From contig CM022676.1 in assembly GCA_012295275.1 (NCBI GenBank), positions 14,570,001 through 14,634,000 on the forward strand: a stretch of DNA of 64,000 nt. The letters are read 5' to 3'. A program made the position numbers and the translations under genes. Positions 2,684 through 55,194 of this stretch are shown one piece after another; position 1 is the first letter of the stretch, and the number at the start of each line of letters is the position of its first letter. The notes beneath the pieces are model-generated. The model was given only the letters and a program-made list of their open reading frames with translations. It searched no databases and was not told the DNA's origin. Source of the stretch: Chrysomallon squamiferum. Its lineage: Eukaryota > Animalia > Mollusca.

Positions 2684-4242
2684 ATGTCTGCAAATTCAAG
2701 TTGGCAAACAGGGAAGAATCTGATGCAATGCATTGAACACGTTTTTCTTACAAGAACTGACACGGACATCCGATTTTTTGTTGGGGAAGATAAAACGGCT
2801 GTCGATGCTCACCGATTCATACTCATCATTCGAAGCGAAGTTTTCCGTCAGATGTTGACTGGAGAACTTCGCGAACAACACAATATATGTGTTCCTGATG
2901 TGAAGGCAGAAATCTTCTCAGAGTTTTTAAAGTATGTTAAAACACGCACTCACACACACACAGACACACACACACACACACACACACACACACACACACA
3001 GACATGGAAATACACGTACGAACACAGTGAAGAAGAGAGACATACATGCAGACAGAAACGTTGATAACAATACAGTTTTTGTTAGTAATCTAATTATTTT
3101 CTAATTAATTAATCTGACCTAGTTATCTCACATTTTAAAGTCTTACTCTACTTCTTTTACACAGATATCTTTATACGGATGACGTCGTCCTAACAGGTGA
3201 CAACGTCACCGGTCTGCTATATCTATCGAGGAAGTACATCATCACAACACTTGAAGATGAATGCGCAAAATATTTGGAGTCGTCGTTGTCGTCACAGAAT
3301 GCGTGCGTCGTGCTGGAACAAGCTCACCTGTTTGATCAACATGATCTAAGGAAAAAAAGTCTGGACTACATTTTGAAAAATGGTGACGAAGTTTTGAAGT
3401 CAGATGAAGTCACCGATCTTTGTCACGAATGTCTGGTTGAGATCGTGCGATCAGACGAGCTGACTGCAGACGAGAAAAATGTTTTTGAAGCCGCTGTGAA
3501 GTGGGCTGACAGCGCGTGCAGGAACCAGAGAATGAACACGAGTGGAAGAAACAGACGTGAAGCACTGGGAGAGGTCGTGAAGCACGTGCGTTATCCATTA
3601 CTCGATCAGACGTATTTTGTAAAACACGTGACACCCACCCACATACTCACTGAGACAGAAGAGTTCAGAATTTCGAAACACTTGGTGAGCAGTGATGAAG
3701 ATGTTTCACCTTTTAACTCAAACAAGAGAACTGCAGAGCTTCCTAAAACACAGATTACAATAAACAGGTTTGGTACGTATGCTGGAGAATATGGTTTCTA
3801 CTGGTTATGTTCTGGTAAAGAAGATCACGCCATTACTTTCTCTGTCAACAAGAACGCTTTACTTCGCGGATTTCAGTTGTACGGTCACCGTCAACCACGA
3901 AACTACGACGTCAGAGCCTTCGTTACTGACACAAGAACAGACGAAATACTGGACGGGTCTACATTTACACAGAGATATGAACGCGTGTCTGACGTGTATG
4001 ACGTCGTGTTCAGACGTCCAGTGAAGATTACTAAAGACACTAAGTACAGCTTGTGTGTTAATATTGAGGGAGGAGACAGAGAGATGGGAGTCACAAGGTG
4101 TGGACGTGAAGGTGAATCAGAAATTGTTGTAGACTCTTTTGTTTGTAGATTTTCTAAGTCACACAAATCTAAACACAGTGACAGACAACTTCGTACATGT
4201 GTGACACGAGGACAAATACCTGCTTTGTTATTTTTAGTGTAA
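2684..4242 (+). CDS. BTB/POZ-BACK-PHR domain protein, copy 1 (BTBD1/2/3/6 family, putative Cullin-3 substrate adaptor), intact, 441 aa
   Basis: Exon 1 is 2684-2931 (WQTGK...DIRFFVG...AHRFILIIRSEVF...PDVKAEIFSEFL). Donor aa|gtatgt, acceptor ttacacag|a. Exon 2 is 3165-4242 and restores KYLYTDDVVLTGDNVTGLLYLSRKY in frame. It continues into the BACK domain (EKNVFEAAVKWA...VRYPLL) and the PHR domain (GFQLYG...FRRPVKI...GQIPALLF). No stops after splicing. Confidence 0.93.
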
Positions 4243-5134
4243 AAAACAACATCATTCAAATACTGTCACTTTTCGTCATCACTGCGATGATGTTTTTCTT
4301 TATTTCTTTATTTATTTGTTTGTCTGTTTATTTATTTATTTATGCTTGTTTACGTTTTGTATTTCTGATGAAGTCAGACAACAGTGATGACGTCATGCAC
4401 ACTTTATTTGAGATTTTTGATTTCTAATGGACTGATTTCTGTCAAACACGTGCATGAAGTATATAAACAGCTCATTTCGTATTGTTTTACTGTTATTAAC
4501 ATGACACTTCTCTTGCTCTTCATTCATTCATTATGTATTTATTATTTACTTATTTATTTATTTACTTAATTGTTTATTTATTCCTATGTTTTTCTTTACT
4601 TATTATCAACATCAAATCAATATGTCACAATAATAAGTAGATACTTTATTTGTGTTGTGATGTGTAACATTTAGTTTCATTGTGTGCACATATCAATGAG
4701 ACGGGATATACACACAAACACACAAACACACATATATGTATGTATATATATTATCGAGGTTGTTGTTACTATTCTTATTACAGTAAACTCATGTGTGTGT
4801 GTGTCATATATCTATGTGTTAATGTGTGTGTACGAATCTGTGTGTGAAAGGATTTGTATTGTAAACTTTTTAGAAAGATATCAGAATATTTATTTTTAAC
4901 ACTACAAACATCATATCTCTCTAATTATAGGTTACGAATTATTTGAAAACTGAAATGAAATTGAACATATATTAAAAATAAATAAAAATAAATAAATAAA
5001 TAAATAAATAAACAAACAAACAAACAAACAAACAAAGAAAGAAACAAACAAACAAACAAACAAACAAACAAACAAAAACCAAATAAAACAACATGTAGCA
5101 GAGATATATGGTTTGCTTAGTCATTCTAGAAATA

Positions 5135-52210: not shown

Positions 52211-53643
52211 ATTCAGCACAACATACCTAACTTTGTAATATATGGAACAAAATATACGGAAAAGAGAAATATATGACTAAATATATATATAAACAAAGAT
52301 GATGATGATGATGATGATGATGATGATGATAAAAATAAAAATAATAATAATAATAATAATAATAATAATAAAAAAGAACTGCACAGAGAGAGAGAGAGAG
52401 AGAGAGAGAGAGAGAGAGAGAGAGAGAGAGAGAGAGAGAGAGAGAGAGAGAGAGAGAGAGAGAGAGAGAGAGAGAGAGAATTCAGAGGCATGATATACAG
52501 AGTTGTAAAATCTATTTAATGTCTGAGTTTGCTTATCTCCCAATCCAACCAGTGTTTTTTGTTGTTTTTTTTTTTTTTTTTTAAAGCTTTTCACTTGAAT
52601 TTCTCTTACACCATATATTCTTTCTTCACAGAAGAGAAAAAGATGACATGAACGAAACAAATATAATTAAAACATTTATTTCTATACTTCTATATTTTGT
52701 GTTTACATTTTTAACAAATTAACAAATTAAGTACAAATTATAATTTTATGTATAAACAAACTGACAACTTCTAATGTTATGTCTAATGAATATTGTATAT
52801 AATATAATTTACTAGCATATCTATTTTACATAAATCTAAATAAAAGAACACAGACAAATGAATCAAATAGCAGTTCTTAAAGTTCATGTCTAACAAACAG
52901 TAAACACATAATTTATCTTCGTATTAGTTTTAAAACAAAAAAAATAACAGTATTTTATTTGATTTGTGACAAAATCTAAACACATAATTTATAATATTTC
53001 TTAATAGACTAATCTTATTTAGGCTTTTATTGATACTTTGTATTTCATGGGAATTAATTTACAGATGGAAGACGGAAAAAAAAAAAATTAAATTCAAAAA
53101 TAATTAAGTTTTTTTGACTCCTGTGTAGTGAATACTGAACGATATAAAATTTACATTGATATTTAAACTAAAATAAAATGTCACTTGGTCTCTAATAAAT
53201 ACTACATATTTACGCATATTCAATAATAAGACATCCATGAACAAAGAAAAACAAATTATATATATAAAAATATAATACTATTTTCGAATATAGAATTAAC
53301 ATATTTAGGTAACATATTTCCTCTATTATATGACAGTTTAAAAAATACATTAAATAATCAAACAATCTATATTAAATAAATAAATAAATAAATAAATAAA
53401 TAAAGCAATGAGCTGTTTATGTACATTATACACGTGTCTGTTTGACAGAAGCCAGTCCATTAGAAAGTTTCAAATAAAGTGTGTATGACGTCATCACTGC
53501 TGTCTGACGTCATCAGAAATACAAATGTAAACAAAAATAAGTAAATCAATAAATCAATATATAAATAAATAAGTAAATAAATAAAAATAAAAATATGAGT
53601 CCAGTGATGACTAAAAGTGACAGTGTTTGAACGATGTTGTTTT

Positions 53644-55194
53644 TTACACTAAAAATAACAAAGCAGGTATTTGTCCGTCTGTCACACCTGTACGAAGTTG
53701 TCTGTCACTGTGTTTAGATTTGTGTGAGACAGAAAATCTACAAACAAAAGAGTCTACAACAATTTCTGATTTACCTTTAAATCCACACCATGTGTCTCCT
53801 CCCTTAACATTAACAAACAAGCTGTACTCAGTGTCTTTAGTAATCTTCACTGGACGTCTGAACACAACGTCATACACGCCAGACACGTGTTCATATCTCT
53901 GTGTCAGTGTAGACCCGTCCAGTATTTCGTCTGTTCTTGTGTCAGTGACGAAGGCGCTGACGTCGTAGTTTTGAACGGTAACCGTACAACTGAAATCCGC
54001 GAAGTAAAGCGTTTTTTTTACAGAGAAAGTAATGGCGTCGTCTTCTTCACCAGAACATGACAAACAACCAACCATATATTCCAGCACCAAACCCAAACCT
54101 TTTATTGTTCTCTGTGTTTTAAAGGAATCATCACTGCTGGTTTCAAAATGTTCTTTTCTTTGTTTGAGTTAAAAGGTGAAACATCTTCATCTGGACAAAG
54201 CAAACATGTTTGAAAATTTTGTACTCTTCTGTCTCAGTGAGTATGTGAGTCCGTGTCACGTGTTTTACAAAAATACCTCTGATCGAGTAATGGATAACGC
54301 ACGTGCTTCACGATCTCTCCCAGTGCTTCGCGCGCATGTTTTTTCACTCGTTTCCTTCCCCTTGTTTCCTGCACGCGCTGTCAGCCCACTTCACAGCGGC
54401 TTCAAAAACATTTTTCTCGTCTGCTGTCAGTTCGTCTGATCGTACGATCTCAACCAGACATTCGTGACAAAGATCGGTGACTTCATCTGACTTCAAAACT
54501 TCGTCGCCATTTTTCAAAATGTAGTCCAGACTTTTTTTCCTTAGATCATGTTCATCAAACAGGTGAGCTTGTTCCAGCACGACGCACGCATTCTGTGACG
54601 ACAACGACGACTCCAAATAATGTGTGCATTCATCTTCAAGTGTTGTGATGATGTACTTCCTCGATAGATACAGCAGACCGGTGACGTTGTCGCCTGTTAG
54701 GACGACGTCATCCGTGTAAAGATATCTGTGTAAAAGAAGTAGAGTAAGACTTTAAAATGTGAGATAACTACGTGAGATCAATTAATTAGAAAATAATTAG
54801 ATTACTAACAAAAACTGTATTGTTATCAATGTTTCTGTCTGTATGTATGTCTCTCTTCCTCACTGTGTTCGTACGTGTGTTTCCATGCCTGTGTGTGTGT
54901 GTGTGTGTGTGTGTGTGTGTGTGTGTGTTTAACATACTTTAGAAATTCTGAGAAGATTTCTGCCTTCACATCCGGTACAACTAAATTGCTGTGTTCGCGA
55001 AGTTCTCCACTGAACATTTGATGGAAAACTTCGCTTCGAATCATGAGTATGAACCGATGCGCATCAATCGTCGTTTTATTTTCTCCCACTACAAATCTGA
55101 TATCACTGTCAGCTTTCGTACGAAAAACGTGTTCAATACACTGAGTTAATTTCTTCCCTGTCTGCCAACTTGTGATTTCAGCTGATGTGGCCAT
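53644..55194 (-). pseudogene. BTB/POZ-BACK-PHR domain protein, copy 3; several frameshifts and scrambled sequence at ~53970-54360 (pseudogene or poor consensus)
   Basis: ATG at 55194. Exon 1 is 55194-54938 (257 nt, the same length as copy 2) and exon 2 is 54725-53644. The BTB, the N-terminal BACK and the C-terminal PHR parts are clean. The middle part has multiple indels. Confidence 0.8.

What the first reader, a model, noticed from the sequence alone, without database searches (positions are those of the whole stretch)
3740..54100. Hypervariable PHR domains on a conserved BTB-BACK scaffold: candidate diversifying Cullin-3 adaptor (intracellular immunity) family
Seen: over the last ~77 codons of copy 2 (28090-28320) versus copy 3, I count 11 codons with amino-acid changes (G/E, D/G, S/T, L/W, D/F, E/K, D/V, Q/H, D/G, K/T, T/D) and only 1 synonymous change. 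The first ~120 codons of exon 2 (BTB end and BACK) differ at only about 3 codons. All three copies vary at the same patches: before C-S-G (AGEYGFYWL vs GNFWWS), after LYG (HRQPR vs DDVPQ), the G-D loop (GGDREMGVTRCGRE / GDDSLCGDE / GGDTWCGFK) and before GQIP (TCVTR / TDVKT / TGVTD). Known: BTB-BACK binds Cullin-3 and the C-terminal domain recruits substrate. Nematode and plant F-box and MATH-BTB families show this same signature and were proposed to target foreign proteins for degradation. Inference: this is a mollusc lineage-specific BTB-BACK-PHR repertoire in an arms race, recognising pathogen or symbiont proteins.
Basis: partly seen in the sequence, partly recalled or inferred. Interest (0 to 1): 0.8.

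Follow-up and report, generated by a model that had tools for sequence, protein, structure and literature searches.

The report
Hypervariable loops on snail ubiquitin adaptors
A snail carries many near-identical copies of a gene for a predicted ubiquitin-ligase adaptor whose changes pile up, almost all as amino-acid changes, in a few loops predicted to sit on one end of its last domain, which likely makes it a fast-evolving recognition repertoire, possibly against microbes; the gene expansion itself was already published.

Summary
The window holds three BTB-BACK-PHR (BTBD6-like) copies, closest to Gigantopelta aegis proteins (47-53% identity). Whole-PHR dN/dS (1.2-4.9) is mostly not significantly above 1. 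The signal lies in five PHR loops: copy 1 vs 2 has 22 nonsynonymous and 1 synonymous difference there (omega 4.0, p=9e-5; loop set partly post hoc). The same loops are hypervariable in a separate Gigantopelta radiation (45% vs 12-16% elsewhere) and nearly invariant in abalone orthologues (0-1%). Public runs from three studies hold the variants and further in-frame loop versions, also in RNA runs. The expansion is already published for vent snails, read as neural (Zeng 2020) or listed as immune (Lan 2021); I found no report of loop selection. Cul3 binding, one-pole placement of the loops and foreign targets are inferred, not shown. Vertebrate Btbd6 recruits Plzf through BTB, not PHR, and a published symbiont-organ gene list shows no BTB enrichment. 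Verdict: real diversifying selection, a new variant of a known kind.

The parts
2684..2931 (+). Copy 1 exon 1, BTB domain, with an L-R-E phi-x-E-type motif at residues 62-64
   Evidence: Pfam BTB E=1.2e-9; aligns to human BTBD6 BTB 2VKP, LRE against LAE; GT donor at 2932 gives an open 441-aa frame
3165..4242 (+). Copy 1 exon 2: BTB end, BACK, PHR; the only intact copy
   Evidence: Pfam BACK E=5e-17, PHR E=5e-20; model pLDDT 84.5; VIA-align Z 19.5, rmsd 1.9 A over 146 residues to BTBD2 PHR 3NO8
3766..3819 (+). PHR loop L1 (residues 284-301), hypervariable in length and sequence
3883..3897 (+). PHR loop L2 (residues 323-327), hypervariable
3985..3993 (+). PHR loop L3 (residues 357-359); a one-codon insertion variant is present in contigs
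   Evidence: table 4 (3 letters put in behind 3983 in 4 of 4 runs); less variable in Gigantopelta clade A
4072..4116 (+). PHR loop L4 (residues 386-400), hypervariable; 15-nt insertion in copy 1
4156..4221 (+). PHR loop L5 (residues 414-435), variable before GQIP
26777..28323 (+). Copy 2 (exons 26777-27032, 27269-28323); net +1 frameshift near 28082-28087 in this assembly
   Evidence: contigs in 4 of 4 runs show in-frame forms at this place (table 4)
53644..55194 (-). Copy 3 (exons 55194-54938, 54725-53644); about nine frame-breaking indels in 54360-53970, likely a garbled consensus there
   Evidence: it shares a junction with an in-frame 81-nt duplication seen in contigs (tables 5, 5c)
24092..57908 (.). 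Inverted duplication, 24092-35786 against 57908-45485, carrying copies 2 and 3 and an Ig V-set gene, around a 200-N gap

Best explanation
These are members of a large, recently amplified BTB-BACK-PHR gene family whose PHR loops are under diversifying selection and which likely act as a repertoire of Cullin-3 adaptors that would bind varied, probably foreign, cytosolic proteins and mark them for degradation. Shown: the domain order, the PHR fold, many related copies in the genome, nonsynonymous excess confined to five PHR loops, and the same loops varying in a second snail's radiation. Inferred, step by step: (1) BTB plus the first BACK hairpin bind Cul3, as measured for vertebrate Btbd6; (2) the five loops lie on the pole of the beta-sandwich away from BACK and form one binding face; (3) tandem duplication plus sequence exchange keeps exon 2 nearly uniform while selection drives the loops apart; (4) the moving targets are viral or bacterial proteins, by analogy with nematode F-box and MATH-BTB families. 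Steps 1 and 2 are likely (about 0.8 each); step 4 is the weakest.
For: Copy 1 vs 2 in L1-L5 (46 codons after dropping indel-adjacent ones): 22 nonsynonymous, 1 synonymous; pN 0.206, pS 0.032; Fisher p=0.015 within the loops, p=0.0005 against all exon-2 synonymous sites. Pairwise codon model: omega 4.0 (p=9e-5), 20 and 2.95 (p=0.010) for the three pairs with shared branch length; p=0.005, 0.038, 0.019 with the loops' own branch length. PHR sites picked only from Gigantopelta variation (22 of 28 usable): 14.5 nonsynonymous, 0.5 synonymous in copy 1 vs 2; site overlap odds ratio 6.1, p=2.5e-4. Six Gigantopelta paralogues differ 45% in these loops, 12% in the loops assigned to the other pole, 13-16% in BTB, BACK and strands; two abalone orthologue sets differ 1.3% and 0% in the same loops, less than in BTB/BACK. 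Window copies form their own clade (support 100), apart from Gigantopelta clade A. 754-2335 contigs per run lie on copy 2, 193-830 on the copy 1 PHR, with several letters at loop sites and further in-frame loop versions. Lack of synonymous change in the loops argues against them being old unconverted segments (exon 1 pS 0.39). phi-x-E motif present. Precedent: PMC4334554 passage on F-box and MATH-BTB.
Against: Whole-PHR omega is mostly not significantly above 1. The loop set was fixed from the model's DSSP after the variation had been seen; the three pairs are not independent; two of three copies are frameshifted here. Omega in the rest of exon 2 is 0.42-0.72, so constraint is loose. Of the 40 best-supported of 108 variant rows, 35 read as nonsynonymous, but about 77% of PHR sites are nonsynonymous, so this tally alone is not decisive. 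Btbd6 recruits Plzf via BTB, not PHR. In the G. aegis supplement that I take to be the list of 1782 genes high in the symbiont-housing gland, only 2 rows name a BTB protein, where a 72-member family would give about 6 at the background share (file matched by order and columns, rows not matched to the family). Bivalves hold 8-37 copies of the orthogroup.
Confidence: 0.5

Rival explanations
1. Selection on the loops is real, but the targets are the snail's own: fast-evolving transposon or selfish-element proteins, or host proteins in neural or other tissue-specific roles (the published neural reading).
For: Positive selection does not name the partner. Known partners of the family are host proteins (Plzf, TOP1). 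Zeng et al. read the expansion as nervous-system related. No BTB enrichment in the symbiont-organ list.
Against: Abalone orthologues keep these loops nearly invariant, as expected for fixed host partners; parallel hypervariability in two species' bursts fits a conflict better than a stable neural role. The neural reading rests on the gene name only, in the passages read.
Confidence: 0.2
2. No recognition repertoire: a tandemly amplified family under relaxed constraint, many copies pseudogenes, with gene conversion flattening the scaffold and tolerant loops (plus consensus errors) collecting the differences.
For: 2 of 3 copies frameshifted; neighbouring Ig copy also has a 4-nt deletion; omega 0.42-0.72 outside the loops and whole-PHR omega not clearly above 1; exon 1 vs exon 2 pS mismatch; some interrupted copies appear as skip joints in DNA contigs (table 5); published counts for C. 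squamiferum differ, 56 vs 5.
Against: Relaxation gives omega near 1, not 22:1 in loops; other-pole loops stay conserved in the window (1 of 21 codons) and in Gigantopelta; Gigantopelta paralogues are full-length annotated proteins; variants recur in runs of three studies and in RNA runs.
Confidence: 0.2
3. The loops form a variable binding face, but for glycans or other ligands, or as sensors or decoys that do not send the partner to the proteasome.
For: The PHR model resembles galactose-binding jelly rolls (CBM32, F5/8C, DOC) at Z 6-9; PHR is not the substrate site for Btbd6-Plzf.
Against: Those Z values are in the range the tool calls common, and a shared fold shows no function; BTB is under purifying selection (omega 0.20-0.30) and keeps the phi-x-E motif.
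Confidence: 0.1

Closest known systems
BTB-BACK-PHR (BBP) family: BTBD1, BTBD2, BTBD3, BTBD6 (PMC1257465; 10.1101/575910)
   Same: Domain order, PHR fold (Z 19.5 to 3NO8), phi-x-E-type motif.
   Different: Four to seven conserved genes per metazoan genome in that survey; here many young copies with hypervariable loops.
Published BTBD6 expansion in peltospirid vent snails (PMC7736800: 56 copies in Chrysomallon squamiferum, 35 in G. aegis, tandem; PMC7895826: 72 in G. aegis, listed under immune families)
   Same: Very likely the same family: best hits are G. aegis BTBD2/3/6-like proteins at 47-53%, tandem arrangement.
   Different: The passages read give no domain-level or site-level selection analysis; one paper ties the family to the nervous system.
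Nematode and plant F-box and MATH-BTB adaptor repertoires (Thomas 2006, seen only through the passage in PMC4334554)
   Same: Birth-death family, cullin-binding part conserved, putative substrate part positively selected.
   Different: The variable module is PHR, the host is a mollusc, and the foreign-target role is untested here (it is stated as a hypothesis for nematodes too).

Membership tests
BTB-BACK-PHR (BBP) | BTB, BACK and PHR domains in that order | tested here: met
   Pfam above cut-off for BTB (exon 1), BACK and PHR
BTB-BACK-PHR (BBP) | PHR beta-sandwich fold | tested here: met
   Foldseek top hits 3GBW, 3NO8, 3HWJ; VIA-align Z 19.5, rmsd 1.9 A, 146 residues
Cullin-3 adaptor | phi-x-E motif in the alpha3/beta4 loop | tested here: met
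   L62-R63-E64 aligns with L-A-E of human BTBD6 2VKP; motif as defined in PMC3616122; unchanged in all three copies
Cullin-3 adaptor | 3-box helical hairpin after BTB | tested here: met
   model aligns to KLHL11 BTB-BACK in 4AP2 (Z 13.7, 167 residues) and to the SPOP BTB/3-box region; fold only
Cullin-3 adaptor | physical binding to CUL3 and substrate ubiquitylation | not testable with these tools
Diversifying cullin-adaptor repertoire (F-box / MATH-BTB type) | lineage-specific expansion with birth-death turnover | tested here: met
   own clade in the tree; hundreds to thousands of contigs per run (not a copy number); published counts
Diversifying cullin-adaptor repertoire (F-box / MATH-BTB type) | positive selection in the substrate-side domain, purifying selection in the cullin-binding domain | tested here: met
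   loops omega 3-20, BTB exon omega 0.20-0.30; three sequences only, whole PHR mostly not significant
Diversifying cullin-adaptor repertoire (F-box / MATH-BTB type) | selected sites clustered on one surface | tested here: inconclusive
   pole assignment from strand alternation in the model's DSSP, not from coordinates; 23 of 63 pole-A positions hypervariable vs 1 of 21 pole-B
Diversifying cullin-adaptor repertoire (F-box / MATH-BTB type) | foreign substrate or induction by infection | not testable with these tools
   only contigs were available; one published organ list shows no enrichment

The most novel reading that the evidence does not exclude
Peltospirid vent snails carry an antibody-like intracellular repertoire, dozens to hundreds of Cul3 adaptors with five CDR-like PHR loops on a scaffold kept uniform by gene conversion, that recognises and degrades viral or bacterial proteins in the cytosol; PHR would be a third repeatedly recruited variable recognition module for cullin ligases, beside the F-box partners and MATH, and the bivalve expansions would work the same way.
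Probability: 0.3. Interest if true: 0.8.

Novelty: new variant of a known kind. Interest (0 to 1): 0.52.

Why it matters
It gives a testable alternative to the published neural reading of one of the top expanded gene families of vent snails, points to the surface by which PHR domains (whose binding site is poorly known) engage partners, and would extend the cullin-adaptor model of intracellular immunity from nematodes and plants to molluscs, including bivalves that carry 8-37 copies.

Tried and rejected
No whole genome was held, so no genome-wide paralogue set and no codeml site models. Metagenome contigs gave no relative by protein and no match to a DNA pattern. A PHR-only protein search found nothing. 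The tblastn used a query in the wrong frame and is superseded; the copy 2 translation was one base off and is superseded. A first tree did not finish its careful search; the tree cited is FastTree. Summed contig depth was not used as a copy number or expression level; lower RNA-run depth over the intron and 3' flank is only a hint of spliced transcripts, and no splice joint was listed. Whether copy 2's own frameshift exists in reads is unresolved. The PHR structure paper and Thomas 2006 were not held, so their contents are not cited directly. Pfam on 92 other ORF stretches, taken from the 129 that passed a complexity filter out of 324, found only the Ig V-set exon. Three look-ups of earlier findings returned nothing. 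Rejected: 'all differences are consensus errors'; 'loops are old unconverted segments' (no synonymous excess); 'these loops are variable in any PHR'. No complex prediction was run.
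Full report
What is in the window. The window is 30% G+C with one 200-N gap at 35787-35986. It holds three copies of a two-exon gene. 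Copy 1 (2684-2931 and 3165-4242, +) gives an open 441-aa protein with BTB, BACK and PHR domains above Pfam's cut-offs. Copy 2 (26777-27032, 27269-28323, +) has one net +1 frameshift near 28082-28087. Copy 3 (55194-54938, 54725-53644, -) has about nine frame-breaking indels between about 54360 and 53970. Copies 2 and 3 lie in an inverted duplication of about 12 kb on the two sides of the gap, 2.5-5.4% diverged in the intron and 3' flank stretches measured. They may be young paralogues or two haplotypes scaffolded side by side; I could not decide this. Copy 1's unit is more distant (77% BLAST identity).

Organism and prior knowledge. Of 22 hits, the ten best are Gigantopelta aegis BTBD2/3/6-like proteins at 47-53% identity. 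The window is therefore from a related gastropod; Chrysomallon squamiferum is the likely species, which is an inference and was not checked. The expansion is in print. Zeng et al. (PMC7736800, passages) count 56 BTBD6 copies in C. squamiferum and 35 in G. aegis, in tandem, and speculate on a nervous-system role. Lan et al. (PMC7895826, passages and supplement rows) list BTBD6 among immunity-related expanded families; their table gives 72 in G. aegis, 5 in C. squamiferum and 8-37 in six bivalves. Their main supplementary PDF was too large to read and could bear on this. Four searches returned no paper on selection in these PHR domains; the library lacks most subscription journals.

Reading copies 2 and 3 in copy 1's frame and dropping codons touched by gaps, the last 76 codons show exactly the 11 amino-acid changes listed and 1 synonymous-only codon; the first 118 codons of exon 2 differ at 3. 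But 14 nonsynonymous against 2 synonymous differences on 175 and 53 sites gives p=0.235. For the whole PHR a pairwise codon model gives omega 1.85, 3.88 and 1.28 with its own branch length (p=0.20, 0.12, 0.60); with a branch length shared across exon 2 only copy 2 vs 3 passes (p=0.017). So the domain-wide claim is weak as written.

Where the signal is. An AlphaFold model of exon 2 (17-sequence alignment, pLDDT 84.5, pTM 0.54) matches the BTBD2 PHR at Z 19.5, rmsd 1.9 A. I took loops from its DSSP and assigned them to two poles by strand alternation: L1 284-301, L2 323-327, L3 357-359, L4 386-400 and L5 414-435 to the pole away from the termini, four short loops to the other. This is topology, not coordinates, and it was done after seeing the variation. 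For copy 1 vs 2, dropping codons 288-295 and 356-360, the 46 remaining pole-A codons carry 22 nonsynonymous and 1 synonymous difference (pN 0.206, pS 0.032; p=0.015), against pN 0.044 and pS 0.078 in the other 290 codons of exon 2. The codon model gives omega 4.0 (p=9e-5) for this pair, and 20 and 2.95 (p=0.010) for the pairs with copy 3 after dropping its garbled stretch (203-300, 323-327); with the loops' own branch length p is 0.005, 0.038 and 0.019. The pairs share sequences and are not independent. BTB in exon 1 has dN/dS 0.20-0.30; the rest of exon 2 is loosely constrained (0.42-0.72).

Outside controls. The window's copies form one clade with a long stem inside the Gigantopelta radiation (FastTree, 37 rows), so the two species' recent bursts are separate. 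Six close Gigantopelta paralogues differ by 45% in pole-A loops, 12% in pole-B loops, 14% in strands, 13% in BTB and 16% in BACK; two further pairs show 54% and 33% in pole A against 14% and 5% in pole B. Of positions with three or more residues among the six, 23 of 63 are in pole A, 1 of 21 in pole B, 4 of 78 in strands, 15 of 267 in BTB/BACK. PHR sites chosen from Gigantopelta alone carry 14.5 nonsynonymous and 0.5 synonymous differences in copy 1 vs 2 (22 of 28 sites usable). Two sets of abalone orthologues (4 and 3 sequences from 90% clusters) differ by 1.3% and 0% in these loops, less than in their BTB and BACK, so the loops are normally conserved. One distant abalone pair (P0015/P0025) shows no pole contrast (60% vs 63%), and three near-identical Biomphalaria sequences are uninformative.

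Reads. Nine of 11 listed runs, from three studies, hold the gene; the best shares 58% of its words. Laid at 80% likeness, 754-2335 contigs per DNA run and 268 in an RNA run fall on copy 2, and 193-830 on the copy 1 PHR. This is no copy number but fits a large family. Copy 3's letters at L4 (28169, 28170, 28174, 28178, 28186, 28187 in copy 2 coordinates) occur in 4 of 4 runs, and several loop sites show more than one alternative letter. Loose ends, translated by eye, give more in-frame loop versions: L1 SDYWP (X9, RNA), RVFGLY (X7, RNA) and EHGYL (X2, X3); L2 VSETRI (X2, X4) and QHDTQN (X4); L4 ENTL (X9). The loop variation is therefore not a consensus error. At copy 2's frameshift, contigs show a one-letter-shorter and a two-letter-longer form, both in frame; whether copy 2's own form exists is not resolved. 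Copy 3's garbled stretch shares its junction with an 81-nt in-frame duplication seen in X1 and X7 (tables 5 and 5c), so I infer a collapsed consensus there. The 40 best-supported of 108 variant rows on the copy 1 PHR read as 35 nonsynonymous and 5 synonymous; with about 77% of sites nonsynonymous this does not decide anything alone.

Homogenisation. Copy 1 vs 2 pS is 0.39 in exon 1 and 0.07 in exon 2, with 9% in the 3' part of the intron. Exon 2 has therefore been exchanged or converted among copies more recently than exon 1 (inference). The very conserved BACK is partly this. It does not explain the loops: old unconverted segments would carry synonymous changes, and 0 of 51 pole-A codons differ synonymously only.

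Mechanism. Cul3 binding is inferred from the L-R-E motif aligned with L-A-E of human BTBD6 (motif per PMC3616122 passages), from the fold match to KLHL11 BTB-BACK, and from measured Btbd6-Cul3 binding (10.1101/575910, first quarter read). The same preprint reports that Btbd6 takes Plzf through BTB, not PHR, so PHR as substrate module rests on the proposal in PMC1257465 and the TOP1 binding of BTBD1/2 C-terminal regions (passages), and now on the selection pattern. [quoted passage not shown] Against a symbiont-specific role: the file I take to be the G. aegis list of 1782 genes high in the oesophageal gland has 2 BTB rows, below the roughly 6 a 72-member family would give at 1782 of 21,438, and bivalves are expanded too.

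Verdict. It works like a diversifying cullin-adaptor repertoire in its evolutionary signature; Cul3 binding and immune function remain untested. New variant of a known kind; interest 0.52.

Noticed in passing
window 31472-31801, 32758-32885, 33362-33424 (+); inverted copy near 50150-49820 (-): A single Ig V-set domain gene (Pfam E=2.5e-7) with a transmembrane exon and short tyrosine-bearing cytoplasmic exons lies in the duplicated unit after copies 2 and 3 but not after copy 1. The inverted copy has a 4-nt deletion in the V exon and, counted by eye, 6 nonsynonymous and 4 synonymous differences.
   Followed up: partly
window 27774-27836 (copy 2 coordinates): Contigs in one DNA and one RNA run show an in-frame 81-nt tandem duplication in the BACK-PHR linker of some paralogues.
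   Followed up: partly
window 2684-2931 vs 3165-4242: Exon 1 is five times more diverged at synonymous sites than exon 2 between copy 1 and copies 2/3, and far less contig depth lies on exon 1: exon-level mosaicism, or many exon-2-only copies.
   Followed up: partly
copy 1 residues 203-257 (about window 3523-3687): The C-terminal part of BACK is a second variable zone: 9 of the 15 hypervariable BTB/BACK sites in Gigantopelta clade A fall at 210-257, and the window copies differ there too.
   Followed up: no
window 29702-30638 and 50980-52215; 18803-19328; 44424-44592: Minisatellites of 94-95, 59 and 52 bp; the 94-95 bp array lies between the BTB gene and the Ig gene and differs in copy number between the two units.
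   Followed up: no
PMC7736800 vs PMC7895826: Published copy numbers for this family in C. squamiferum differ tenfold (56 vs 5); frameshifted consensus sequences like those here could cause under-annotation.
   Followed up: no
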